A DNA stretch of 64,000 bases. Source: a virus. Its lineage: Duplodnaviria; Heunggongvirae; Uroviricota; Caudoviricetes. Below are positions 49,365-60,383 of the stretch, piece by piece. The translations under genes and the position numbers were made by a program. Position 1 is the first letter of the stretch; each line of letters starts with the position of its first letter. The notes beneath the pieces were generated by a model, which did not search any database, had not been told where the DNA came from, and saw only the letters and a list, made by a program, of their open reading frames with translations. The DNA lies in IMG/VR virus record IMGVR_UViG_2778260992_000001; one strand, 5' to 3'.

Positions 49365-49446
49365 GTATCTGGATAAGTAAGTACTAATTTACTATCATTG
49401 TGGCGCTGACAGGATGTTAGCGCCTACTTATTTCAAGGATGAAACA

Positions 49447-50145
49447 ATGGGAATTAAAGCTGATATTCAGAGCTTATCTCCCTCTGCACTCATTGAGTTG
49501 TTCGTACTGGATATGTCGAACACAACTTCAGGGGGGAAGCTATTCTTCCACGCCGGAACAAACGAACTGATGCAACCGGTCGTCTGGCAAGGAGTGACAT
49601 ACGAGCCGTGGCCAATCAAAGCATCAGGTTTTGACAAAACGGGCCAGGGAACGTTGCCACGTCCAAAAATTCAGGTATCGAACTTTGCCGGAACCGTCTC
49701 TGCGGAAGTTCAGGCGAACGACGATCTTGTTGGCTGCCGCATTATTCGCAAGATGACGCTGGCTCGCTTCCTCGATGCCGTTAATTTTAAAGACGGCAAC
49801 CCAACAGCAGATCCAAACCAACATTTCCCGGATGAAATGTGGTTTATCGAACAGAAAACTCTCGAAACTCATCAGGTTGTCGAGTTTGAATTGTCCAGTG
49901 TGTTCGATTTGATGGGGGTGCAACTGCCGTATCGTCAGATCATTAAAAACACCTGCCCGTGGAAATACCGAGGGCCAGAATGCGGCTATACCGGTCCATA
50001 TTTCGACAAAAATAACCAGCAGACGTCTATGTCTGGTGCTGATTACTGCACAAAACGTTATGACGCCTGTAATGCGCGTCGGAATTATTTTGCCAACGGA
50101 GTGATCCATTTTGGCGGGTTTATTGGAGCTACGCGATATGGGTAA
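49447..50145 (+). CDS. minor tail protein L
   Basis: clear similarity to lambda gpL as recalled (WQGVTYEPWPIKASGFD, ARFLDAVNF, C-terminal Cys cluster). Confidence 0.85.
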   Translation: MGIKADIQSLSPSALIELFVLDMSNTTSGGKLFFHAGTNELMQPVVWQGVTYEPWPIKASGFDKTGQGTLPRPKIQVSNFAGTVSAEVQANDDLVGCRIIRKMTLARFLDAVNFKDGNPTADPNQHFPDEMWFIEQKTLETHQVVEFELSSVFDLMGVQLPYRQIIKNTCPWKYRGPECGYTGPYFDKNNQQTSMSGADYCTKRYDACNARRNYFANGVIHFGGFIGATRYG

Positions 50146-50935
50146 TAAAGCAATCCCTGAGCTTGGCTCTGATGTTATGCAGCAAATCTATCTCTGCGCC
50201 ATAAATCGCTACCCTAATGAAGCGTGTGGCTTTCTGGTGAGAACTAATGGCGACAAATATCGCTTTATGGAAGCGCGAAATGTTTCGGAGAACCCGCAGA
50301 ACACTTTTGTAATGCACGTTGACGACATTATGGCGGCAGAGGATGCAGGTGACGTAATCGCAATCTGGCATTCACATACTGATGAATCAGCAGAAGCATC
50401 TGATGCCGATCGTGCAGGCTGTGAAGCGACGGAAGTTCCGTGGATGATTCTGGCTATTCGCAAGAATGTTGAGGGAGATGCCCCTTTCCATTTTAGCGAG
50501 ATGAATGTGATCACACCTGATGGTTTCGAAATGCCATACCTGGGTAGACCGTATGTATTTGGCGTATTCGATTGCTGGATGTTGTGTCGGGACTATTTGA
50601 AGCGTGAGTTTAACGTCGAGCTTAACCCGAACGCACACCTGCATATTCCATCGTGGTACACCGGCGATAACGACATTCTCGACCAGAACTACCGAAACGA
50701 GGGATTGGTACGGCTTGCGCCTGGAACAGAGCCTCAACGTGGGGACGTCTTCTTTATTCAATACGGGAAAATGCCAGATCACTGCGCGGTTTATATCGGC
50801 GATGGAATGATTCTTCATCACCAGATCGACCGTCTTAGTTGTCGTGCTTATTACGGCGGAATGTATCAGAAACATACGACGCATCACTTGCGTCACAGAG
50901 ACTTGCTCAAGGGAGATGAGACGTGTCTGAGTTAG
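50138..50935 (+). CDS. tail assembly protein K (MPN/JAB + NlpC/P60-like domains)
   Basis: EACGF, HSH metal motif and C-terminal DC...H as in lambda gpK. Confidence 0.85.
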   Translation: MGNKAIPELGSDVMQQIYLCAINRYPNEACGFLVRTNGDKYRFMEARNVSENPQNTFVMHVDDIMAAEDAGDVIAIWHSHTDESAEASDADRAGCEATEVPWMILAIRKNVEGDAPFHFSEMNVITPDGFEMPYLGRPYVFGVFDCWMLCRDYLKREFNVELNPNAHLHIPSWYTGDNDILDQNYRNEGLVRLAPGTEPQRGDVFFIQYGKMPDHCAVYIGDGMILHHQIDRLSCRAYYGGMYQKHTTHHLRHRDLLKGDETCLS

Positions 50936-51516
50936 TTCATGTGCAGCTTGGCGGCCCTATGGCCAAACATTTTGGCCGCCACTGGCATCTAAAGGTGCGC
51001 AATGCAAAACAGGCTCTGGATTTAATTGAGGCCAACAAGCCTGGGTTTAAAGCATGGATGAAGCGCAATATCAAAACCTATGACCGTTACCACATCCAGA
51101 TCACCAATAAACAGGGCCACAAGTGGTCTGTTGACGAAAGTGAATATCAGATGATGGGGCAGTCTGACAACATTGCCAAAATCCGCATTACACCTGTTCC
51201 GCGAGGAAGCGGTGGATCTGCTTTTGGGTGGTTTCAGACGGTAGTAGGGGCCGCTTTGTTGGTTGTATCGGCGGTAGTGATGCCTGCTTTAGCACCTCTC
51301 GGTTTGTCACTGATGATGGGCGGCATATCACAAATCATATCGCCGCAAGCCACTAACGAAAGTGTGAGACAGGCAGATAACTCGAACTCTTATTATTTCG
51401 ACGGCCCTCAAAATACAGAAAACCAGGGCAACCCAGTACAACTTATCTATGGCGAGGAAATTCTGGTTGGCTCACAGGTTGTGAGTTCTTCAATCACGAT
51501 TGACCAGCTAATGTAA
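50923..51516 (+). CDS. tail assembly protein I
   Basis: hydrophobic Gly/Ala segment and C-terminal LIYGEEILVGSQVVS as in lambda gpI; GTG start. Confidence 0.7.
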   Translation: MSELVHVQLGGPMAKHFGRHWHLKVRNAKQALDLIEANKPGFKAWMKRNIKTYDRYHIQITNKQGHKWSVDESEYQMMGQSDNIAKIRITPVPRGSGGSAFGWFQTVVGAALLVVSAVVMPALAPLGLSLMMGGISQIISPQATNESVRQADNSNSYYFDGPQNTENQGNPVQLIYGEEILVGSQVVSSSITIDQLM

Positions 51517-51533
51517 ACAAGGATTTTTTGAAC

Positions 51534-54500
51534 ATGGAACAGTTCAAGAAGAAAAAGCTACCGCTGTTTATTGCCGGTGCGGGTGGTAAAAAAAGCAGCA
51601 AAAGCTCCAGCCGTACACCGGTTGAAGCCGACGATACCGTAAATTCTCGTGCAATGGCCGCTATCCTCGATCTTCTTGGGGAAGGGGTAATTGGCGGCTT
51701 AGTAAATGGCGCAAGATCTATTTTTATCGACGATCTGCCGATTGTAAATGAAGACGGTTCCTCCAACTTCAGCGGAATCACATGGGATTTTCGCGACGGT
51801 TCACAAGACCAGACTCCAATGTCTGGCTTTGATTTCGTTGAAACGCCTAAATCCGTCAATATCCAGTTAAAAAAAACACATTATGTAACGGTTTCAATCG
51901 ATAACGATGAAGCTGATCGGGTTCGTGTCATCATGAAGTTTCCTTCTTTGCGAAGCATAGATAAAAAAACTGGTGACACGAACGGTACGACTGTTGAGTA
52001 CAAGTTCCAGATAGCAAATGGCGACTCAACATTTGTAGATGTGGTCGCTGAAGGTGAAAAAAGCGTTGGCATTAAGCTAACAGCAAAGAAGACCGGCGTT
52101 TATTACCGTAGCTATGAGCTGAAGCTGCCTAAGCCTGGACGAGCATACAAGGTTCGTGTGGTCCGTATTACCGATGATAACAGTAGCCAGTATCTCTATA
52201 ACGATACATGGGTGGATTCAATCGGGGAAATTGTCGATACACCGATGAACTATCCAAACTCTGTTTTGGTTGGATTGAAGGTAAACTCTGAGCAATTCGG
52301 CAGCACCATGCCATCTCGCTCTTATCTGGTGCGTGGCCTAAAAATTCGAGTACCTTCAAACTATAACGAGTCCAGTAACACTTACGCTGGGGTATGGGAT
52401 GGCACTTTTAAGCTGTTGTCTTCTTCGAACCCCGCGTGGATTCTCTTTGATTTGCTGACCAATGCTCGATATGGCCTTGGTCAGTATGTGTCGGAATCTA
52501 TGATTGACCTTGGCCAGTTGTACCAGATTGGTCGATATTGTGACGAAGAGGTCGATGATGGCTTTGGTGGCAAAGAGAAACGCTTTGCAATCAATACGCA
52601 GATCACCAGTCGACAGGACGCATACCGGCTAATTCAGGATATTGCCGGAGCATTCCGCGGCATGGTGTTTTGGGCTGGTGGGATGGTTAACATCATGCAG
52701 GATAGCCCATCAGATCCGGTAATGATGTTTACCAACTCTAACGTCAAAGATGGATTGTTTACCTATAAAGGTTCTGCGCGTAAAGATCGCCCATCCGTTG
52801 CGCTCGTAACCTACAACAACAAGGAGGACGGTTATAAGCAAAACATCGAGTACGTCGAAGATCAGGACGCAATGCGCCGTTATGGTGAGCGTAAAACAGA
52901 AGTCGTAGCATTTGGCTGTACAAGCCGAGGGCAGGCTCACCGAGTTGGTTTGTGGCTTTTATATACCTCCAGAATGGAGTCGGATGTAATTACATTTACT
53001 GCCGGCTTAGACGCGTCATTTCTGATGCCTGGTGAAACCGTTCTGATTCAGAACAAATATCGCGCAGGCAAACGTAACTCAGGTCGAATTGTGGCGTTTA
53101 CCAAAAACAGCGTCACACTCGATGCGCCTGTGTCGTTAGCCAAAGGCGGCTGCTTTATTCGAATACTGAATCAGGAAGGCAAAATCGTTGAACGCGATGT
53201 TCTTGAAACTGGCGAAAATATAACAAAAGTTACGTTTTCAAAAGCCCTGTCTTCGGCTGAAACGCCTGTTTTGAACGGCGTCTGGACTATTACAGAACCA
53301 GACCTCGAACCTATGCGCGTTCGCATCGTTAACATCGCGCAGGGGGAAACGCCGGGTAGCTTTGACATCACCGCTGTTGAGAACAATCCGTCTAAATATG
53401 AGGCAATCGACAATGGTGCAACGCTGATCCCGCAGAATACGACGGTATTGGACCCAACTTACTCCAAGCCATCTAATCTGCAAATCACTGAAGGGACTTA
53501 TCTCTCAAGCCCGGGCAACCTGTCAGTAAAACTGACTGCAACATGGGAAGGGAAATCTCCAGAGTATTGGATCAGTTGGCGACGTTCTGATGAAAACAAT
53601 GTATCGAACTGGCAATCGGCGCGTGTAACCGAAGAGCAATACGAAATCGTTAATGTCGCGGAGAATGGACGCTACGACTTCCAGCTGTATGCGGTTTCAT
53701 TCAACGGTAAAAAAACAGAGATTATCAGTACCGTTTATCAGGTGTTGGGCACAATGACACCGCCGGATTCCCCAACGTCATTAACGGCCGTTGGAGACTA
53801 TCGTAATGTGATACTGAATTGGGTTAATCCAGATTCGGTAGACCTTGATCACATTAATGTTTACGCATCCCAGACCAACAATCTGGATACGGCGAAACTG
53901 ATCGCAGAGTCTGCAAGCACCACCTTTACACATGCTGGTCTTGGGGATAGCGAAACGTGGTATTACTGGGTTCGAGCATCGAACAAGCGAGGTATGTTAA
54001 GTCCTCCGAACTCAAACTTGGGTACAGAGGCGACAACTCGCGATGTACTGTCGTTCCTGACTGGCAAAATTACATCTTCCGAGCTTGGTCAGGCTCTGCT
54101 TGAGGACATCAACAGCAAAGCCTCTCAAGAAGCAGTTGACGAGTTAAATGAGCATATCAACCAGAGCGTCGAATCTTTGGAGGGGGCGGTAAACGACGTT
54201 AAGGAAGATATAGCTGAATTAGATAAGCAGTTCAGCGATAACCTCGCGGATTTTGAAATAAAATTCAACGAGCGTAGCGATGCTTTGGAGAACGCACAAA
54301 CCGAGCTTAAAGGTGAGGTTTCGGCAACGATCGACAAGGTCAATGAAGCGTTTGAAAAAATTGATGCTACTGATGCTGCAATTGTTGAAATCGAAAACAC
54401 CGTATCTGAACACGATAAAGCTCTCGCTAATACAGTCGAGGCAATAAAGGCTGCAAGAGATGAAGCGGCGGCTCTTATTGCTAAGGAAAGCGAGGCTCGT

Positions 54501-56261
54501 GTTGAAGGCGATGCTGCAAACGCTAAACAACTGGAAGTGTTGCAGTCAACGGTAGAGGAAAGCTCCGCTGCCGTTGAAGAAATGAAAAAGACGGTTGCAG
54601 AGGTCGATCGTGCCAGTGCAGAACTGACTACGAACATTGAGGCGTTAGCCAAAACAAATATTGACCTGGCTCTTCGTCAAGATGAAGACCAGCACAAGCA
54701 GATGGTCAATAACGCGAAGATCGCAACAACACAGAAAACCTTTGCTGATGATATGTCTGCAATGGCCACGAAGGTTGAGGAAATTCGCGTAGAAATTGGC
54801 GAAGACATTAAGGCCAGTATTCTGGAAGAGTCCACCGCTCGTGCCGATGGCGATGAAGCGTTGGCAAAGCGTGTCACTCAGCTGCAATCTAAGTTTGAAG
54901 GAGATATCAGCGCGGCGATTAGTACAGAGCAGGAGGCTCGTACATCTGCCGATGAAGCTCTGACGACACAGATCACTCAGCTTGAGTCGAAAGTAAGCAA
55001 CGATATCGTCGCAGCTATTAAGGAAGAGCAAGAAGCCCGAGCAACGGAAGATTCGGCTCTGGCAAGCCAGATCACCCAACTTCAGGCAAAGGTTGATGAT
55101 GATATTTCTGCTGCAATACGTAGTGAGCAGGAGGCCCGAGCAAGCGGGGACTCTGCGTTAGCCAAACAAATAAACCAGCTTCAGTCAAAGGTTGACGGTG
55201 ATATATCCGCTGCCATCACTCAGGAGCAGGAGGCCAGAGCAAGTGCTGACCAGGCGCTCTCACGAGAAATTAACAGCCTGCGAGCACAAACCGGAACTGA
55301 TATTGCCGCAGCGGTTGCTGTAGAGACAAAAGCAAGGACTGATGCCGATAGTGCATTGTCTACCCAGATTACGTCTCTTACAGCAAAAGCTAATGATCTC
55401 GAGGCGTCTCTTGCCAGAGAAACAACGGCTCGTGCAGATGGTGATACCGCTTTAACAAAAGAGGTTTCAAGTTTAAAAGCACAGACAGCGAAAGATATTA
55501 GTGCGGCCGTTGCAGTTGAAACGCAGGCTCGAACTGATGCTGACTCGGCGTTGTCGTCTCAGATCACCAAGCTGACCTCTCAATACAAAGAGGATATTAA
55601 AGCGGCTGTAGCAACCGAAACGAAAACGCGTACAGAGCAAGATGCGGCATTGGCGACTCAAATCACAAACTTAGAGTCTCAAACAGCAGCCAACATTTCT
55701 GCGGCGGTCACAACTGAAACGACAGCGAGAACGCAGGCAGATAATGCTCTGAGTGGGCGAATCGATACTCTGAAAGCAGAGGTGGATGGAAATACCGCGA
55801 CAATTCAACAGCAGGCAACAGCTATTGCTGATACCAACAAAAAAGTGTCAACCGCGTGGACGTTGAAAATGGAGACTTCAACGAGCGGAGGGCAGAAGTA
55901 TGTTGCCGGTATTGCGCTTGGTATTGACACCACTGGGCTATCTCAGTTTTTGGTTCAGGCGGACAGGTTTGGTTTGGTCAACTCTGTCAACGGGAAGATC
56001 ACCACGCCATTTGTTATCGAAAACAGTATTGCCTATATGAATGGTGCTTATATCAAGGATGGCACAATCACCAATGCAAAGGTAGGCGATCTGCAATCTA
56101 CCAATTTTGTTAGCGGTAGATCTGGATGGCGATTCGGTAAAAATGGAACGCTTGAAATAAACGGTAATAGCGGCGGCAATGGGCGATTGGTCATTAATGG
56201 TCAGCGGATTGACGTTTATGACGATAACAACGTCCTACGAGTAAGAATTGGCCGTCTGTGA
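51534..56261 (+). CDS. host specificity protein J (central tail fibre/tip protein) with internal coiled-coil tandem repeats
   Basis: N-terminal two-thirds collinear with lambda J as recalled (NSEQFGS, YCDEEVDDGFGG, FGCTSRGQAHRVGLWLL); ~30-aa repeats in the C-terminal part. Confidence 0.9.
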   Translation: MEQFKKKKLPLFIAGAGGKKSSKSSSRTPVEADDTVNSRAMAAILDLLGEGVIGGLVNGARSIFIDDLPIVNEDGSSNFSGITWDFRDGSQDQTPMSGFDFVETPKSVNIQLKKTHYVTVSIDNDEADRVRVIMKFPSLRSIDKKTGDTNGTTVEYKFQIANGDSTFVDVVAEGEKSVGIKLTAKKTGVYYRSYELKLPKPGRAYKVRVVRITDDNSSQYLYNDTWVDSIGEIVDTPMNYPNSVLVGLKVNSEQFGSTMPSRSYLVRGLKIRVPSNYNESSNTYAGVWDGTFKLLSSSNPAWILFDLLTNARYGLGQYVSESMIDLGQLYQIGRYCDEEVDDGFGGKEKRFAINTQITSRQDAYRLIQDIAGAFRGMVFWAGGMVNIMQDSPSDPVMMFTNSNVKDGLFTYKGSARKDRPSVALVTYNNKEDGYKQNIEYVEDQDAMRRYGERKTEVVAFGCTSRGQAHRVGLWLLYTSRMESDVITFTAGLDASFLMPGETVLIQNKYRAGKRNSGRIVAFTKNSVTLDAPVSLAKGGCFIRILNQEGKIVERDVLETGENITKVTFSKALSSAETPVLNGVWTITEPDLEPMRVRIVNIAQGETPGSFDITAVENNPSKYEAIDNGATLIPQNTTVLDPTYSKPSNLQITEGTYLSSPGNLSVKLTATWEGKSPEYWISWRRSDENNVSNWQSARVTEEQYEIVNVAENGRYDFQLYAVSFNGKKTEIISTVYQVLGTMTPPDSPTSLTAVGDYRNVILNWVNPDSVDLDHINVYASQTNNLDTAKLIAESASTTFTHAGLGDSETWYYWVRASNKRGMLSPPNSNLGTEATTRDVLSFLTGKITSSELGQALLEDINSKASQEAVDELNEHINQSVESLEGAVNDVKEDIAELDKQFSDNLADFEIKFNERSDALENAQTELKGEVSATIDKVNEAFEKIDATDAAIVEIENTVSEHDKALANTVEAIKAARDEAAALIAKESEARVEGDAANAKQLEVLQSTVEESSAAVEEMKKTVAEVDRASAELTTNIEALAKTNIDLALRQDEDQHKQMVNNAKIATTQKTFADDMSAMATKVEEIRVEIGEDIKASILEESTARADGDEALAKRVTQLQSKFEGDISAAISTEQEARTSADEALTTQITQLESKVSNDIVAAIKEEQEARATEDSALASQITQLQAKVDDDISAAIRSEQEARASGDSALAKQINQLQSKVDGDISAAITQEQEARASADQALSREINSLRAQTGTDIAAAVAVETKARTDADSALSTQITSLTAKANDLEASLARETTARADGDTALTKEVSSLKAQTAKDISAAVAVETQARTDADSALSSQITKLTSQYKEDIKAAVATETKTRTEQDAALATQITNLESQTAANISAAVTTETTARTQADNALSGRIDTLKAEVDGNTATIQQQATAIADTNKKVSTAWTLKMETSTSGGQKYVAGIALGIDTTGLSQFLVQADRFGLVNSVNGKITTPFVIENSIAYMNGAYIKDGTITNAKVGDLQSTNFVSGRSGWRFGKNGTLEINGNSGGNGRLVINGQRIDVYDDNNVLRVRIGRL

Positions 56262-56354: not shown

Positions 56355-59300
56355 ATGTGGTACAGGGAAGGTACTATCACATTTACACAGGGTAGCAATA
56401 CTCTGGTTGGGGCAGGGACAGCCTGGAACGTAACAGCTAATGGTGTGTTGCCTGGGATGATCGTCATTGGCCCCGACAACAAGCTGTATGAGATCAAGCG
56501 CGTAACCAGTGATACGAACATTGTTCTCTCAGAACCTTATACCGGCGAAACTCAGTCTGAAGTTCCGTGCCGAATCATTACGACCTATGAAGGCGACTTA
56601 ACACAGTTTAGCGCGCGCTTTACTGCACTAATGTCGCGTATGTCGGCTGATTCAAAGTCCATGCGCAGTTGGTTGACTGCTCTGGATGAGGTGACAATCG
56701 AGCGTGAAGACGGTACAGAAGTGACCGTTAAGCCGCTAATGCAGATCGTCAACGAGCACAACGAAAACGTTGAGTGGTATAAAAATAACACTGACGCGAT
56801 TGATGCTGCTGGCGACAAAGCTCGTGAGGCGGCGGCCAGTGCTGCCGCAGCAGCAGAAAGCGCCAATACCGCTGGAGAAAAAGCCTCTCAAGCGTCTCAA
56901 AGTGCATCCGCTGCGGCATCCTCACAAAGTGCTGCAAGTGCGAGCGCAACTGCTGCGAAAAAATCTGAAACGAACGCACAAGCCGCAAAAGAAGCGGCAG
57001 CAGAATCAGCATCTGTAGCGTCGGCCAAAGCATCGGAGGCAGCAACATCTGCGTCCAGTGCCTCTGCATCTAAGGATGCAGCCAAAGCATCAGAGACTAA
57101 CGCTTCATCGAGCGCAAACGCGGCAGCATCATCGGCAACAGAAGCTGCAAATTCGTCTAAGGCAGCAAAAACGTCAGAGGCAAACGCAAAAGCATCTGAA
57201 ACGGCAGCCGAACAGAGTGCATCGTCTGCAAACAGTTCGAAATCTGCGGCAGAAGCGTCAGCAAGCGCAGCCTCAGCAAGTGCGGATAGTGCTTCATCAA
57301 GTGCAACAGCGGCAGGAAAATCTGCGGATAGCGCATTGTCATCAGCGACAACAGCTACCACAAAAGCGACAGAGGCGACGAGTCAGGCTACAGCTGCTAA
57401 AAATTCAGCATCTGCAGCAAAAACCTCTGAAACAAATGCAAAGACTTCAGAAGACAATGCTGCTTCCTCTAAGGCGGCAGCTGCTGAATCTGCAAGTTCT
57501 GCGTCTGCATCAGCCTCCTCAGCATCCGCTTCAAAAGATGAGGCTACCAAGCAGGCATCAGAAGCGAAGGGCAGTGCTTCAACGGCATCCACGAAAGCAA
57601 CAGAGGCGGCAGGCAGTGCGACGGCTGCATCTCAGAGCAAAACTGCTGCTGAATCCGCTGCGACCCGTGCGGAAGCTGCTGCTGATCGTGCTGAAGAGAT
57701 TGCCGGTGCGGTTGCGATGGAAGACGCAAGCCTTACAACTAAAGGTGTTGTGAAACTTAGCAGTGCTGTCGATAGCACCAGTGAATCGCTGGCCGCAACG
57801 CCAAAAGCAGTTAAAGCAGCCAATGACAATGCGAATAGCAGGGTGCCATCTAACCGAAAAATTAACGGAAAAGCACTGACTGCGGATATAACATTAACGC
57901 CGAAAGATATTGGTACTTTAAATTCAGTAACGATGTCTTTCTCTGGCGGGGCTGGGTGGTTCAAACTGGCTACGGTTACCATGCCACAAGCGAGTTCCAT
58001 CGTTTACATCACATTGATTGGTGGTGCTGGATATAATGTTAACTCCCCTATGCAGGCTGGTATATCTGAACTTGTTCTTCGTGCGGGAAATGGAAATCCA
58101 AAAGGTCTTACTGGTGCGTTATGGCGAAGGACATCGGTTGGATTTACTAATTTTGCATGGGTGAATACATCCGGCGATACATATGATATTTATGTTGAGA
58201 TTGGCAATTATGCGACGAGTGTAAATGTCCACTGGGATTGTACTGCAAATGCGTCAGTTTCTATTTATACATCGCCAACATATTCAGCGAGTAAGCCTGC
58301 CAGCGTTACCGATGGTGTTGTTTATACGATGTATAGCTCACATCAGAAACCTACGCCATCAGATATTGGAGCACTGCCAACAACCGGAGGAACAGTTTCT
58401 GGTCCGTTGTCTGTTACAGGCGGATTAACTGGTTCATTGAATGGTAATGCAAGTACAGCAACGAAATTACAGACGACAAGAACTATCGGTGGAGTTGGTT
58501 TCGACGGTTCTGCCAATATTAATCTTCCAGGTGTAAACACTACGGGTAATCAGAACACCACTGGTAATGCCGCAACTGCTACAAAACTACAGACGGCAAG
58601 AACTATCGGCGGCGTGAGCTTTGATGGTACTGCAAATATTAATTTGCCAGGTGTTAATACGACTGGTAATCAGAATACAACAGGTAATGCGGCTACTGCT
58701 ACGAAGTTGCAGACTGCGCGTACTATTAATGGGGTGTCGTTTGACGGTTCGGCAAATATTTCCTTGTCACCAGCAAATATAGGTTGCCCGGCATCTCCTA
58801 CTGGTTGGTTAACTACAGGAAGTAATGGCGGAGCAATAACAACAGCCCAGTTAGTGACGTTATTGCAAAATAATGGAGCCTTTAACACAAAGGCATGGAT
58901 TGCTCGATGTGCGTGGGCCTATGCCAATAGCGCAACCATACCAAATAGTGAAACTGGTTGTGGCGTTATTCCATTGGCAGGAGCTGTTATAGAAGTATTT
59001 AATAACGGTAGTAGTTCAAATAATTATACGATCCGCATAACAACGGCCACAACGACAAGTGTTTCCGGTGCTCTCACTAATGCGGAGTTTATCTATGTAT
59101 TTAATGGCACAGATTATTCTCCAGGATGGCGAAGAGTATATAACACGAAAAACAAACCAACTGCATCTGACGTTGGTGCATTACCTCTTACCGGTGGTAC
59201 ATTATCTGGAGGTTTGACATCTTCTGGTGAGATCGTTTCAAAATATGCAAATGGTTTCCGCATTGCTTACGGTAGCTTTGGGTTCTTTATCCGTAATGAC

Positions 59301-60383
59301 GGCGGCAGCACATATTTCATGCTAACAGCATCAGGAGATACGTTAGGTTCATGGAACGGCTTGCGACCGATTACAATTAATAATACTAGCGGTGTTGTGT
59401 CTATTGGTAATGGACTAAATGTTACTGGTGGCGTAAATGGTAGTTTGAACGGTAATGCTTCAACAGCTACGAAGTTGCAAACAGCGAGAAACATCAATGG
59501 TGTTAAGTTTGATGGCTCAGGCGATATCAACATTAATACATTGGTATCTCGTGGCCGAGTTACGGCGTTAAGCGGCTCTACTCAAGGCACTGCTGGCATT
59601 CAAATGTACGAGGCGTACAACAATAGCTATCCGACCACGTATGGCAACGTATTGCACATGAAAGGTGCGAGTGCTGCTGGCGAGGGTGAGTTGCTTATTG
59701 GCTGGAGTGGTACGAGCGGTGCACATGCGCCGGTTTTCATTCGCTCCCGAAGAGATACCACTGATGCAGCATGGTCAGCGTGGGCACAGGTATATACCGC
59801 TAAGGATTCAATCCCTGGTGTGAATACAACCGGTAATCAGAACACTACTGGTAATGCTGCCACCGCCACAAAATTGCAGACAGCAAGGAAAATTGCTGGT
59901 GTGGCGTTTGATGGCTCTGCCGATATTACTTTGACTGCGGCTAACCTTAATGCCTATACGAAAACAGAGGTAACAAACCTTCTAAGTTCCTATGTGAAGA
60001 GCAGTTCTCTTCCAAGCATGACTGTGCGAACTTCCTCTGTTTCAGGTGGGGATATGGGCATGAGTTTGTCCGCATTCATTAGCCACCTTAAATCAAATGG
60101 GGCGTTTAGCAAAAGTTATTGGATTGGCTTTGGCGATGCTATGGGATTCAATGCTGGCAGTATCAACAATATAACGGGATTTGGTGCTGTAGAATTAGCA
60201 GAATCCATAATCGAAGTTTTTAATCTACCTAATGGTGATTATACAATTCGTTTAACGACGTCACACAAAGCTGACTACGGTGGGATTACAAACGCAATCC
60301 TCGTTTATCACTACCGCAGTAATAGAAACCCGGCAGGTCAATGGCTTAAATTTGCCGGTACTCTTGGGGCTACAAACAACTGA
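56355..60383 (+). CDS. side tail fibre protein
   Basis: Ala/Ser-rich SETNAK-type low-complexity region, conserved AATPKAVK fibre motif, repeated GNAATATKLQTARTIGGV modules. Confidence 0.85.
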   Translation: MWYREGTITFTQGSNTLVGAGTAWNVTANGVLPGMIVIGPDNKLYEIKRVTSDTNIVLSEPYTGETQSEVPCRIITTYEGDLTQFSARFTALMSRMSADSKSMRSWLTALDEVTIEREDGTEVTVKPLMQIVNEHNENVEWYKNNTDAIDAAGDKAREAAASAAAAAESANTAGEKASQASQSASAAASSQSAASASATAAKKSETNAQAAKEAAAESASVASAKASEAATSASSASASKDAAKASETNASSSANAAASSATEAANSSKAAKTSEANAKASETAAEQSASSANSSKSAAEASASAASASADSASSSATAAGKSADSALSSATTATTKATEATSQATAAKNSASAAKTSETNAKTSEDNAASSKAAAAESASSASASASSASASKDEATKQASEAKGSASTASTKATEAAGSATAASQSKTAAESAATRAEAAADRAEEIAGAVAMEDASLTTKGVVKLSSAVDSTSESLAATPKAVKAANDNANSRVPSNRKINGKALTADITLTPKDIGTLNSVTMSFSGGAGWFKLATVTMPQASSIVYITLIGGAGYNVNSPMQAGISELVLRAGNGNPKGLTGALWRRTSVGFTNFAWVNTSGDTYDIYVEIGNYATSVNVHWDCTANASVSIYTSPTYSASKPASVTDGVVYTMYSSHQKPTPSDIGALPTTGGTVSGPLSVTGGLTGSLNGNASTATKLQTTRTIGGVGFDGSANINLPGVNTTGNQNTTGNAATATKLQTARTIGGVSFDGTANINLPGVNTTGNQNTTGNAATATKLQTARTINGVSFDGSANISLSPANIGCPASPTGWLTTGSNGGAITTAQLVTLLQNNGAFNTKAWIARCAWAYANSATIPNSETGCGVIPLAGAVIEVFNNGSSSNNYTIRITTATTTSVSGALTNAEFIYVFNGTDYSPGWRRVYNTKNKPTASDVGALPLTGGTLSGGLTSSGEIVSKYANGFRIAYGSFGFFIRNDGGSTYFMLTASGDTLGSWNGLRPITINNTSGVVSIGNGLNVTGGVNGSLNGNASTATKLQTARNINGVKFDGSGDININTLVSRGRVTALSGSTQGTAGIQMYEAYNNSYPTTYGNVLHMKGASAAGEGELLIGWSGTSGAHAPVFIRSRRDTTDAAWSAWAQVYTAKDSIPGVNTTGNQNTTGNAATATKLQTARKIAGVAFDGSADITLTAANLNAYTKTEVTNLLSSYVKSSSLPSMTVRTSSVSGGDMGMSLSAFISHLKSNGAFSKSYWIGFGDAMGFNAGSINNITGFGAVELAESIIEVFNLPNGDYTIRLTTSHKADYGGITNAILVYHYRSNRNPAGQWLKFAGTLGATNN

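What the first reader, a model, noticed from the sequence alone, without database searches (positions are those of the whole stretch)
54100..55700. Tandem ~30-residue coiled-coil repeats inside the J-like tail tip protein
About ten imperfect repeats of the form DISAAI..EQEARA..D.AL..QITQL.SKV are inserted between the lambda-J-like N-terminal body and the C-terminal receptor-binding region. Repeat number could vary by recombination, altering fibre length or host range. The antisense and out-of-frame ORFs called here are artefacts of the repeats.
Basis: seen in the sequence. Interest (0 to 1): 0.5.

Follow-up and report, generated by a model that had tools for sequence, protein, structure and literature searches.

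The report
Modular coiled-coil shaft of phage tail-tip fibre
The tail-tip protein of this SSU5-like phage-plasmid carries ten real 33-residue repeats that form the long helical shaft of its central fibre, and they match, residue by residue, the shaft of F-type pyocins that was recently shown to snap from a coiled coil into a beta-prism to open the tail.

Summary
The repeats are real: ten in-register units of 33 aa (one of 32) at window 54804-55790. Identity at a 33-residue offset is 0.49 against 0.10 in shuffles (z = 23).

The window is an E. coli SSU5-like phage-plasmid, 99% identical to phage Cyrano. The gene is a lambda-J-type tip protein in an L-K-I-J tail module.

The array is a proline-free helix with a hydrophobic period of 3.65. 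It is homologous to the central-fibre shafts of phage T1 gp33 and the F2/F7 pyocin fibre protein.

Every unit carries the published fold-switch motif SxSxxMxxLxS twice, in opposite orientations. The F7 residues shown by mutation to matter fall on conserved unit positions.

Copy number does vary. Three near-identical relatives each lost exactly one unit at different junctions, with only 4-10 nt of microhomology. SSU5-like relatives carry 5, 6, 9 or 10 units, and distant homologues up to 18.

The antisense ORFs are composition artefacts. The C-terminal domain is the lambda-J 839-971-type beta domain, not a demonstrated receptor-binding domain.

Verdict: a new member of a known kind. The helical shaft is well supported. 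The fold switch is inferred from homology and motif, not shown.

The parts
51534..56261 (+). Gene for the J-like tail-tip / central-fibre protein (1575 aa from the ATG; the ORF finder lists a TTG at 51528).
   Evidence: ORF. Pfam: FNIII-A_GpJ aa 104-238, Phage-tail_3 aa 360-523, fn3 aa 647-730, Phage_Tail_Tip aa 1425-1559. NCBIfam lambda_TipJ scores 526 bits, below its cut-off of 1950. 99% identical to J of phage Cyrano. The exact protein is in public collections, in a cluster of 1980 members.
54075..54803 (+). Proximal helical shaft (aa 850-1092). It is proline-free and heptad-like, and is not 33-periodic.
   Evidence: Hydrophobic period 3.54 and zero Pro. Identity at a 33-residue offset gives z = 1.0. 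The SxSxxMxxLxS motif is not enriched (6 hits against 2.7 expected). Aa 850-950 are the most divergent part of J among relatives, and megablast matches of most relatives stop at query nt 2613-2657, about window 54140-54184.
54471..54557 (+). Isolated degenerate repeat unit (aa 982-1010), starting 114 aa before the first unit of the array.
   Evidence: The unit HMM hits it at 14 bits, E = 2.5e-4. The same 114-aa spacing is kept in SSU5, pMT1, PhiR41_1 and others.
54492..54841 (+). Segment of the shaft conserved across genera (aa ~989-1105, containing NIDLALRQDEDQHKQ). Candidate docking site for the side fibre; this is an inference.
   Evidence: It is the only part of the C-terminal half that still matches at 78-82% nt identity in Yersinia pMT1, Citrobacter, Salmonella, Enterobacter and Kluyvera plasmids. 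Identity is 66-92% at aa 1000-1100. The N-terminus of the downstream fibre is conserved in the same elements. In F-type pyocins the side fibres dock on a kink of the central-fibre shaft (PMC13455828).
54804..55790 (+). Array of ten 33-aa units. Unit starts: 54804, 54903, 55002, 55101, 55200, 55299, 55395, 55494, 55593, 55692. Unit 6 has 32 aa.
   Evidence: unit HMM scores 46-60 bits each. Periodicity z = 23. Hydrophobic period 3.65 = 33/9. The motif occurs in reverse at unit position 4 and forward at position 19 in 10 of 10 units. AlphaFold2 gives a continuous helix over units 4-10. Homologous to the T1 gp33 and F2 pyocin fibre shafts.
55800..56204 (+). C-terminal Phage_Tail_Tip (PF09327) beta domain. 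The protein ends 18 aa later with ...LRVRIGRL.
   Evidence: Pfam E = 1.4e-41. Aligns to lambda J 839-971, T1 gp33 986-1168 and the DEV gp56 C-terminus. Foldseek matches SU10 7z4b and lambda gpJ 8xcj/8xci.
54125..55079 (-). Three antisense ORFs (54125-54652, 54219-54530, 54645-55079). These are not genes.
   Evidence: No Pfam hit at E <= 1. The boundaries of antisense open stretches differ in PhiR41_1, SSU5 and pMT1. Antisense stop density is 1.2-1.7 per 100 codons in two of the three antisense frames in the helical region, against 2.9-3.3 in the body.
56355..60383 (+). Downstream 1342-aa side tail fibre (context).
   Evidence: Gp34_trimer domain. Homologous to fibres annotated downstream of J in SSU5, PhiR41_1 (Stf) and pMT1.
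49414..51516 (+). Upstream tail-tip genes L, K and the presumed I (context).
   Evidence: Phage_tail_L; Prok-JAB plus NLPC_P60; the third has no Pfam hit. The near-identical plasmid L001 annotates a C40 peptidase and a tail assembly protein there.

Best explanation
The array is the distal part of the trimeric alpha-helical shaft of the phage's central tail fibre. It is built from ten 33-residue modules placed between a heptad-type proximal shaft and the C-terminal beta 'tip' domain.

It belongs to the same shaft family as phage T1 gp33 and the F-type pyocin central fibre protein. By homology and motif, it most likely works the same way. In the virion it would be a metastable coiled coil, about 49 nm for 329 residues. 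After receptor contact, each module would refold into a beta-hairpin. The hairpins would stack onto the seed strands at the start of the tip domain to build a triangular beta-prism. That refolding would shorten the fibre, open the tail tip and release the tape-measure protein.

The module is therefore the unit of length in both states. Modules are gained or lost whole by rare slippage at short microhomologies.

What is shown: the repeats, the helical character, the homology, the presence of the motif, and the copy-number polymorphism. What is inferred: the trimeric state, the fold switch itself, the trigger, and any effect of unit number on function.
For: - Repeat anatomy and statistics.
- Helical state: no Pro in aa 850-1421 and a hydrophobic period of 3.65 (= 33/9). 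AlphaFold2 monomer models, with a 74-sequence alignment and with a single sequence, both give one continuous helix over units 4-10 at pLDDT ~85-90.
- Unit lengths across the family take only certain values: 32 (146 spacings), 33 (84), 36 (44) and 39 (40), with 34, 35 and 38 essentially absent. All extra residues sit between position 31 and the next position 2. That makes the spacing between core residues 3, 4, 7 or 10, which are the spacings a continuous coiled-coil register allows (my inference from standard coiled-coil geometry).
- Homology: phmmer finds T1 gp33 (9l9p_S, E = 6e-30), the F2 pyocin fibre (25vf_A, E = 1e-24, aligning units 6-10 plus the tip domain to residues 882-1193) and DEV gp56 (9ze4_N). 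The F2/PA0641 shaft was solved as a trimeric coiled coil (PMC13455828; 10.64898/2026.02.24.707460).
- Fold-switch signature: PMC12874032 defines SxSxxMxxLxS per strand, with acidic M positions paired to an Arg four residues away. Every unit has A4-x-[ILV]6-x-x-E9-x-x-[AT]12-x-[AT]14 (reverse, with R13) and A19-x-[AST]21-x-x-[IV]24-x-x-L27-x-[SA]29 (forward). That is 27 motif hits against 5.6 +/- 2.3 in shuffles, maximum 15 in 2000.
- The 25vf_A sequence carries A987, A995, A998, V1010, A1011, A1017, E1039 and R1043, exactly as numbered in the F7 paper. The corner residues map to unit positions 21, 29, 12 and 19, E1039/R1043 map to positions 9 and 13, and the harmless controls map to positions 32 and 13.
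- In 172 distinct units from homologues, S positions are A75/S12/T8/V3 and L positions are L41/I32/V25. The paper reports 68/11/7/8 and 33/32/25.
- Modular gain and loss: one-unit deletions at three different junctions in near-identical alleles. Relatives carry 5, 6, 9 or 10 units. Tandem runs reach 18 in distant homologues.
Against: - No multimer prediction or experiment was possible. AlphaFold2 monomers gave only the helical state, so the beta-prism state of this protein is not shown.
- The motif enrichment is partly a by-product of repetition: one matching unit copied ten times.
- Conserved small residues could instead serve helix packing or binding of a partner.
- He et al. state that lambda and T5 do not show this switch, so it is not universal among J-like proteins. 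Their evidence for phages other than the pyocin is prediction only.
- This array, at 329 aa, is twice as long as the 163-aa F7 segment. Nothing shows that all ten units would switch.
- Neither SSU5 nor the word 'repeat' occurs in the main text of that paper. Its list of analysed phages is in supplementary tables that are not held.
Confidence: 0.6

Rival explanations
1. Static spacer. The array is only a rigid trimeric coiled-coil extension that sets how far the tip domain reaches, for example through O-antigen or capsule. It undergoes no fold switch, and unit number simply tunes fibre length by about 4.9 nm per unit.
For: All direct evidence here is for the helical state. Copy number varies among relatives from different hosts. 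For T1, AF3 predicts a long extended distal fibre of about 370 A (PMC11945409).
Against: It does not explain why positions outside the helical core (4, 12, 14, 19, 21, 29) are nearly invariant small residues across 172 diverged units. It also does not explain why they coincide with the F7 prism-corner residues whose Gln substitution abolishes killing without affecting assembly (PMC12874032; mapping).
Confidence: 0.28
2. Docking ladder. The repeated units are serial binding sites for side fibres or an accessory receptor-binding protein, and the conserved small residues form that interface.
For: In F-type pyocins three side-fibre trimers attach to the central-fibre shaft (PMC13455828; 10.64898/2026.02.24.707460). 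A 1342-aa fibre gene follows J.
Against: In the pyocins docking is at a single kink (around G955), not on the repeats. In this family the element that co-varies with the conserved fibre N-terminus is the non-repeat segment at aa ~989-1105, while unit number changes from 5 to 10 beside similar fibre N-termini. The same units occur in T7-type fibres and a podophage short fibre, which have different partners.
Confidence: 0.07
3. Constitutive beta structure. The array is already a beta-prism or beta-helix in the virion and is never a coiled coil.
For: He et al. report that AF3 predicts a beta-prism for about 30% of related phage fibre regions (PMC12874032). The alignment-based AlphaFold2 model here turns the second half of unit 10 (from aa 1410) into a strand.
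Against: The hydrophobic period is 3.65 rather than about 2, the region is proline-free, and both AlphaFold2 runs give a confident helix. The restriction of unit lengths to 32, 33, 36 and 39 fits a helical register. The homologous pyocin shafts are helical in assembled particles.
Confidence: 0.04
4. No real feature: the apparent periodicity comes from Ala/Glu/Thr-rich composition.
For: Tandem Repeats Finder reports no array with a ~99-nt period.
Against: z = 23 at a 33-residue offset and z = 16.5 at a 99-nt offset against codon shuffles, with no signal at 98 or 100 nt. Ten unit-HMM hits at 46-60 bits each.
Confidence: 0.01

Closest known systems
Central fibre protein of F-type pyocins (PA0641 / PyoF10; F2 chain 25vf_A; F7 protein of He et al. 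2026, PMC12874032)
   Same: J-type hub, then FNIII domains, then a long proline-free helical shaft, then a PF09327-type beta tip domain. Sequence homology covers the shaft and tip (E = 1e-24). The unit motif and the mutated or cited residues fall on the same unit positions.
   Different: The pyocin switch segment is 163 aa, about five degenerate units of ~32 aa. Here there are ten well-preserved units of 33 aa (329 aa), preceded by a further 243-aa helical region. This is a phage-plasmid virion protein, not a bacteriocin. The pyocin has a separate distal adhesin (PA0642), and no equivalent small gene lies between J and the fibre gene here. The fold switch is shown only for the pyocin.
Phage T1 central fibre protein gp33 (9l9p_S; PMC11945409)
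   Same: Best solved-structure sequence match (E = 6e-30). It has near-perfect 33-aa tandem units followed by the same tip domain and the same ...LRVxIGRL terminus.
   Different: The aligned part of T1 shows only about four units, and its C-terminal 350 residues were not resolved (an AF3 model only). T1 is a lytic member of the Drexlerviridae (family assignment from my own knowledge). DEV and, as proposed, E. coli Drexlerviridae use a receptor-binding protein encoded next to the J-like gene (PMC12892993).
Lambda gpJ (8iyk, 8xcj; PMC11101478)
   Same: The N-terminal body (lambda_TipJ profile positions 5-917), the L-K-I-J gene order, and the tip domain, which equals J 839-971.
   Different: In the comparisons made here lambda J matched only through the tip domain (J 839-971), not through any part of the array. 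It carries a C-terminal LamB-binding domain that is absent here. He et al. note that lambda does not show the extensive switch.
Other SSU5-like phage-plasmid J proteins (SSU5, Y. pestis pMT1, PhiR41_1, Cyrano)
   Same: Same gene, the same isolated unit 114 aa upstream, the same unit types, and the same tip domain.
   Different: Unit number is 5 (SSU5, Salmonella, Enterobacter), 6 (pMT1, Citrobacter), 9 (PhiR41_1 and three deletion variants) or 10 (this allele and Cyrano). The pMT1-type J adds a C-terminal domain, and a DUF4376 gene follows it.

Membership tests
Lambda-type tip attachment protein J (TipJ) | N-terminal hub body with FNIII-A_GpJ and Phage-tail_3 domains | tested here: met
   Pfam E = 1.5e-29 and 1.6e-33. 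The NCBIfam lambda_TipJ profile matches aa 23-957 at 526 bits, but this is below the 1950-bit cut-off of that lambda-specific model.
Lambda-type tip attachment protein J (TipJ) | Position in an L-K-I-J tail-tip gene module | tested here: met
   Phage_tail_L, then Prok-JAB + NLPC_P60, lie upstream. The third ORF has no Pfam hit but is annotated as a tail assembly protein in near-identical plasmids.
Lambda-type tip attachment protein J (TipJ) | C-terminal lambda-like receptor-binding domain after the straight-fibre domain | tested here: not met
   The protein ends 18 aa after the PF09327 domain, which aligns to lambda J 839-971. Lambda J is 1132 aa, and nothing here matches the region after residue 971.
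Fold-switching central-fibre shaft (F7 pyocin type, PMC12874032) | Sequence homology of shaft plus tip domain to the pyocin fibre protein | tested here: met
   25vf_A at E = 1.2e-24; J aa 1242-1549 aligns to chain residues 882-1193.
Fold-switching central-fibre shaft (F7 pyocin type, PMC12874032) | SxSxxMxxLxS motif in alternating orientation, with small residues at the corner positions | tested here: met
   Reverse motif at unit position 4 and forward motif at position 19 in 10 of 10 units; 27 hits against 5.6 +/- 2.3 in shuffles. Family-wide residue frequencies match the paper. F7 A987, A995, V1010 and A1017 map to positions 21, 29, 12 and 19 (alignment).
Fold-switching central-fibre shaft (F7 pyocin type, PMC12874032) | Acidic residue at an M position paired with an Arg four residues away | tested here: met
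   E9 and R13 are invariant in all ten units and present in 98% of 172 family units. They correspond to F7 E1039 and R1043.
Fold-switching central-fibre shaft (F7 pyocin type, PMC12874032) | Trimeric alpha-helical coiled coil in the assembled particle | tested here: inconclusive
   Helical character is supported. The oligomeric state cannot be tested because only monomer prediction is available.
Fold-switching central-fibre shaft (F7 pyocin type, PMC12874032) | Non-switching seed strands at the start of the tip domain | tested here: inconclusive
   The alignment-based AlphaFold2 model has three strands at aa 1410-1419, 1422-1434 and 1440-1451 directly after the helix. The single-sequence model keeps a helix to aa 1440. 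pLDDT is low (49-55) at the junction.
Fold-switching central-fibre shaft (F7 pyocin type, PMC12874032) | Conversion to a triangular beta-prism on receptor contact, required for function | not testable with these tools
   Needs multimer prediction, cryo-EM/ET or mutagenesis.
Recombinogenic DNA tandem repeat (contingency-type repeat) | Long, near-identical DNA copies that support frequent homologous recombination or slippage | tested here: not met
   Units are 39-66% identical at nt level, and the longest in-register exact run is 12 nt. Tandem Repeats Finder reports no ~99-nt-period array. 161 of 165 PLSDB alleles show neither of the two deletion junctions tested.

The most novel reading that the evidence does not exclude
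The 32/33-residue unit would be the basic building block of a two-state fibre: one stretch of coiled coil before triggering and one beta-hairpin layer after it. Array length would then set both the reach of the fibre and the stroke or energy of the coiled-coil-to-prism collapse. With ten units (329 aa) this protein would undergo a fold switch about twice the size of the 163-residue F7 example. The natural 5-, 6-, 9- and 10-unit alleles, plus three independent single-unit deletions, would be a ready-made series for testing how the switch scales. None of the structural papers I read describes the periodicity, the restriction of unit lengths to 32, 33, 36 and 39, or the copy-number polymorphism.
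Probability: 0.45. Interest if true: 0.65.

Novelty: new member of a known kind. Interest (0 to 1): 0.45.

Why it matters
How non-contractile tails obtain the energy to open the tip and breach the envelope is a long-standing question. [quoted passage not shown] It was shown for one pyocin and only predicted for phages.

This locus is an infectious, culturable phage-plasmid lineage (Cyrano, PhiR41_1, SSU5) in which the candidate switch segment is a clean modular array. Natural length variants with 5, 6, 9 and 10 units are already available. That makes two questions directly testable: whether the switch operates in a real phage, and how its size relates to adsorption, ejection and host range.

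The analysis also gives a simple sequence rule for annotating such shafts, which no Pfam or NCBIfam model covers at present. The rule is a fixed 26-residue core plus a linker whose length is restricted to a few values.

Tried and rejected
- Tandem Repeats Finder on the DNA found no array with a ~99-nt period. The copies are too diverged, so the periodicity had to be shown at protein level and by autocorrelation.
- Pfam and NCBIfam have no model for the unit. Only sub-threshold hits to coiled-coil families such as SF-assemblin appeared.
- AlphaFold2 was run with a 74-sequence alignment and with a single sequence, hoping to see alternative folds as CF-random does. Both monomer runs gave a helix for the array, so this neither supports nor refutes the beta-prism.
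- Foldseek against the PDB matched only the C-terminal domain.
- The search for homologous proteins returned mostly partial proteins under 900 aa, so unit counts from that set are lower bounds. Full-length counts came from annotated loci and the representative search.
- A literature search for repeats or copy number in J proteins found nothing relevant. The supplementary tables of He et al. are not held, so I could not check whether SSU5-like phages were among their 24 proteins.
- A half-unit periodicity of 16-17 aa, and 11-aa periodicity, were considered and rejected (z <= 1.9).
- Homologous recombination as the mechanism of unit loss was rejected because the junction microhomologies are only 4-10 nt.
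- I did not search for expansion alleles (11 or more units) among close relatives.

Full report
**What the window is.** The region belongs to an E. coli SSU5-like phage-plasmid. The J-like gene is 99.0% identical over its whole length to 'tail host specificity protein J' of Escherichia phage Cyrano. It is 97.8% identical to phage CMS-2020a. Its C-terminal half is found at 97-99% identity on about 165 non-mobilizable plasmids of E. coli, E. albertii and Shigella, and never on a chromosome. The gene (ATG 51534 to stop 56261, 1575 aa) follows genes for Phage_tail_L, a JAB/NlpC-P60 protein (K-like) and a small assembly protein. A 1342-aa tail-fibre gene follows it. Pfam finds FNIII-A_GpJ, Phage-tail_3, fn3 and a C-terminal Phage_Tail_Tip domain at aa 1425-1559. 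Nothing is found for aa ~850-1424. NCBIfam's lambda_TipJ profile matches aa 23-957 but scores far below its cut-off.

**Checking the observation.** Printing the sequence in blocks of 33 residues puts ten consecutive units in register from aa 1093 to 1421, window 54804-55790. Unit 6 is one residue short. An HMM built from the ten units recovers each at 46-60 bits. It also finds one isolated, degenerate unit at aa 982-1010.

Identity at a 33-residue offset is 0.486 inside the array, against 0.100 +/- 0.017 in shuffles (z = 23). At DNA level, identity at a 99-nt offset is 0.53 against 0.29 in codon shuffles (z = 16.5), with nothing at 98 or 100 nt.

The coordinates need correcting. Window 54075-54803 (aa 850-1092) is helical-looking but not 33-periodic (z = 1.0), and the array runs to 55790. 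At nucleotide level the units are only 39-66% identical. Among positions with the same amino acid, only 35% share the same codon. The longest in-register exact run is 12 nt. Tandem Repeats Finder reports no array with a ~99-nt period.

**Anatomy of a unit.** Positions D1, I2, A4, A5, [IV]6, E9, A12, R13, [AT]14, D17, A19, L20, [IV]24, L27 and [SA]29 are invariant or nearly so in the ten units. The same holds in 172 distinct units collected from homologues. Hydrophobic residues recur with a period of 3.65 residues in the array (33/9 = 3.67). In the upstream helical region the period is 3.54. There is no proline between aa 850 and 1421, against 35 in the whole protein. AlphaFold2 predicts one continuous helix through units 4-10, both with a 74-sequence alignment (pLDDT ~85-90) and with the single sequence. 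This helix is followed by a beta-rich C-terminal domain.

**Relatives with solved structures.** A sequence search of the PDB with aa 850-1577 gave these matches:
- phage T1 gp33 (9l9p_S, E = 6e-30), which has near-perfect 33-aa units;
- the F2 pyocin tail fibre (25vf_A, E = 1e-24);
- the gp56 short fibre of Pseudomonas podophage DEV (9ze4_N);
- a 'J-like gp24' (23gd_D);
- lambda gpJ, which matches only through the tip domain (J 839-971).

The entries were identified through PMC11945409, PMC13455828 and PMC12892993. Foldseek with the AlphaFold2 model matches only the tip domain, to SU10 7z4b and lambda 8xcj/8xci.

In both F-pyocin structures the homologous region is a trimeric coiled-coil shaft on which the side fibres dock. 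For T1 the C-terminal 350 residues were too flexible to resolve, and AF3 predicts a fibre of about 370 A.

**The fold-switch connection.** He et al. [quoted passage not shown] This opens the tip and ejects the tape-measure protein. Gln substitutions at small 'corner' residues (A987/A995, also V1010 and A1017) abolish killing without affecting assembly. Related phage fibres share a motif, SxSxxMxxLxS, on each strand, in the orientation of that strand. Acidic M residues are paired with an Arg four residues away.

I tested this on the window. Every unit contains the reverse motif starting at position 4: A4, [ILV]6, E9, [AT]12, [AT]14, with R13 four residues after E9. Every unit also contains the forward motif starting at position 19: A19, [AST]21, [IV]24, L27, [SA]29. 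Together that is 27 hits against 5.6 +/- 2.3 in shuffles (maximum 15 in 2000). The upstream helix is not enriched.

The 25vf_A sequence printed carries the same residues at the same numbers as those cited for F7. It also carries the L1050 and I1054 cited in the second preprint. Counting back from the aligned last unit gives this mapping:
- corner residues A987, A995, V1010 and A1017 fall on unit positions 21, 29, 12 and 19;
- E1039 and R1043 fall on positions 9 and 13;
- the harmless controls A998 and A1011 fall on positions 32 and 13.

Across 172 family units the S positions are A75/S12/T8/V3 and the L positions are L41/I32/V25. These are close to the frequencies in the paper.

On this reading each 33-aa unit corresponds to two antiparallel strands, that is one hairpin. 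The inner turn is fixed (positions 15-18, x-[AG]-D-x). The outer linker runs from position 30 to the next position 3. The paper's main text never mentions repeats or periodicity.

**Evidence for both states in family-wide unit lengths.** Among homologues the start-to-start spacing of units is 32 (146 cases), 33 (84), 36 (44) or 39 (40). Spacings of 34, 35 and 38 are essentially absent. The extra residues always lie between position 31 and the next position 2. The core-to-core spacing across the unit boundary is therefore 3, 4, 7 or 10. These are the spacings allowed in a continuous coiled-coil register (my inference). That supports the helical state. The conservation of small residues outside the helical core supports a second constraint.

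**Copy number.** Three alleles that are 97-99% identical to the window encode proteins exactly one unit shorter, and each has a different junction:
- NZ_CP081707: a chimaera of units 4 and 5, joined after position 16;
- NZ_CP027358: unit 4 removed at the unit boundary;
- a Shigella sonnei contig: a chimaera of units 2 and 3, joined after position 27.

At DNA level the junctions share about 4, 10 and 8 nt of identity. The events are therefore independent and look like slippage or microhomology-mediated deletion, not homologous recombination.

They are rare. Of 165 PLSDB records carrying this allele, three (from one study) have the first junction and one has the second.

Over longer evolutionary distances the number of tandem units is:
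- 5 in SSU5 and in Salmonella and Enterobacter plasmids;
- 6 in Y. pestis pMT1 and a Citrobacter plasmid;
- 9 in PhiR41_1, whose units correspond one-for-one with those of the window, including the 32-aa unit;
- 10 in this allele.

A search of 1.84 billion representative proteins with the array found 1811 proteins at E <= 0.001 and 118 at E <= 1e-30. In the 138 best-scoring new hits the longest tandem runs were mostly 2-9 units, with a maximum of 18. Ten units is long but not exceptional. The unit also occurs in T7-type tail fibres (PF03906).

**Mosaicism.** Against PhiR41_1, SSU5 and pMT1, the J body (aa 1-850) is 76-100% identical in 50-aa blocks. Identity drops to 32-60% at aa 850-950 and recovers to 66-92% at aa 1000-1100. 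It is low and interrupted by insertions and deletions in the array, then 80-96% again in the tip domain. Most megablast matches stop at query nt 2613-2657, about window 54140-54184. The conserved segment at aa ~989-1105 is the only part of the distal half still detectable at nucleotide level in Yersinia, Citrobacter, Salmonella, Enterobacter and Kluyvera. The N-terminus of the downstream fibre is conserved in the same elements. By analogy with the pyocins this segment is a candidate side-fibre dock. That is an inference only.

**Antisense ORFs.** The three antisense ORFs of 103-175 aa have no Pfam match. They lie mainly over the non-repeat helical region. Similar open stretches occur elsewhere in J, and their boundaries differ in diverged relatives. 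They are explained by a low antisense stop density: 1.2-1.7 per 100 codons in two of the three antisense frames, against about 3 in the body. They are artefacts of composition rather than of repetition.

**Mechanism and confidence.** That the array is the distal part of an alpha-helical central-fibre shaft made of ten modules is well supported (about 0.9). That it is a member of the F-pyocin/T1 shaft family is supported by sequence homology and by the motif test.

That it actually refolds into a beta-prism on triggering is inferred from these features alone. I put it at about 0.5-0.6. Using standard geometry (1.5 A per helical residue and 4.8 A per strand), 329 residues would span about 49 nm as a coiled coil and about 10 nm as 20 stacked strands. 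Each unit would then change the reach by about 5 nm. This is an inference.

The main rival is a purely static spacer. It explains the helix and the length variation, but not the family-wide conservation of small residues outside the helical core.

**Novelty.** The coiled-coil shaft and its fold switch are already described for F-type pyocins and predicted for siphophages. This locus is a new, particularly regular and long member. Three things appear undescribed in the papers I could read: the strict 32/33-residue modularity, the restriction of unit lengths to a few values, and the natural copy-number polymorphism. They apply to the whole family rather than to this window alone.

Noticed in passing
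window 56787-57717 and 58458-59900 (downstream fibre gene 56355-60383): The 1342-aa fibre has a ~310-aa Ala/Ser-rich low-complexity stretch (aa 145-454). It also has five copies of a ~40-aa motif...NGNA[AS]TATKLQTAR.I.GV.FDGS..I.L..., three of them in tandem at 40-aa spacing, and a Gp34_trimer domain at aa 907-1008.
   Followed up: partly
L011 (NZ_CP083480.1 68206-79977), E. coli plasmid: A giant J homologue of 3923 aa. It has the same N-terminal body and the same PF09327 tip domain, but about 2900 aa lie in between, with only two canonical units and ILEI and SlyX-like hits.
   Followed up: partly
L005 (Klebsiella phage vB_KpnS_p4727): The J homologue is about 2040 aa. It has one unit, two CBM_4_9 carbohydrate-binding stretches and no PF09327 hit, so the distal architecture on the same hub is completely different.
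   Followed up: partly
plasmids NZ_CP085184.1 and NZ_CP029421.1 (hits H87/H129, H99/H149): In these two plasmids the distal half of J is interrupted by IS3-family elements (IS1203, ISEc52), so these phage-plasmids probably cannot make functional tails.
   Followed up: no
window 54804-55790: Identity at an offset of 197 residues (six units) is 0.477, as high as at 33. Units 1-4 resemble units 7-10; for example units 1 and 7 share 'AS', 'TARADGD' and 'K.V'. This suggests the 9/10-unit arrays arose by an old duplication of a multi-unit block.
   Followed up: partly
homologues P0016-P0273: Unit lengths take only a few values (32, 33, 36, 39 aa), with all extra residues in the linker between units. 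36- and 39-aa units can alternate within one protein, as in P0076 and P0169.
   Followed up: partly
P0040, P0043 and other PF03906 proteins; 9ze4_N (DEV gp56): The same unit and tip domain occur in T7-type tail fibres and in the short fibre of an N4-like podophage. The module is therefore shared across tail morphotypes.
   Followed up: no
L006 and L007 (Y. pestis pMT1, Citrobacter pA_CitB): These J proteins have six units. Partial proteins closely resembling the pMT1/Citrobacter type (P0025, P0026) carry an extra domain after the tip domain, with a PF12421 hit in P0026. In both loci a DUF4376 gene sits between J and the fibre gene, unlike in the window.
   Followed up: no
window ~55755-55850 (aa 1410-1440): The two AlphaFold2 runs disagree here. 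With the alignment, the second half of unit 10 and the next ~20 residues are strands (pLDDT ~50 at the junction). With the single sequence they are helix. This is where the published model places the seed for refolding.
   Followed up: partly
window 54140-54184: A mosaic breakpoint. Nucleotide similarity to PhiR41_1, CMS-2020a (CP054387) and the Klebsiella phage-plasmids ends here, at the start of the helical shaft, while similarity to PhiR41_1 at protein level resumes in the tip domain.
   Followed up: partly
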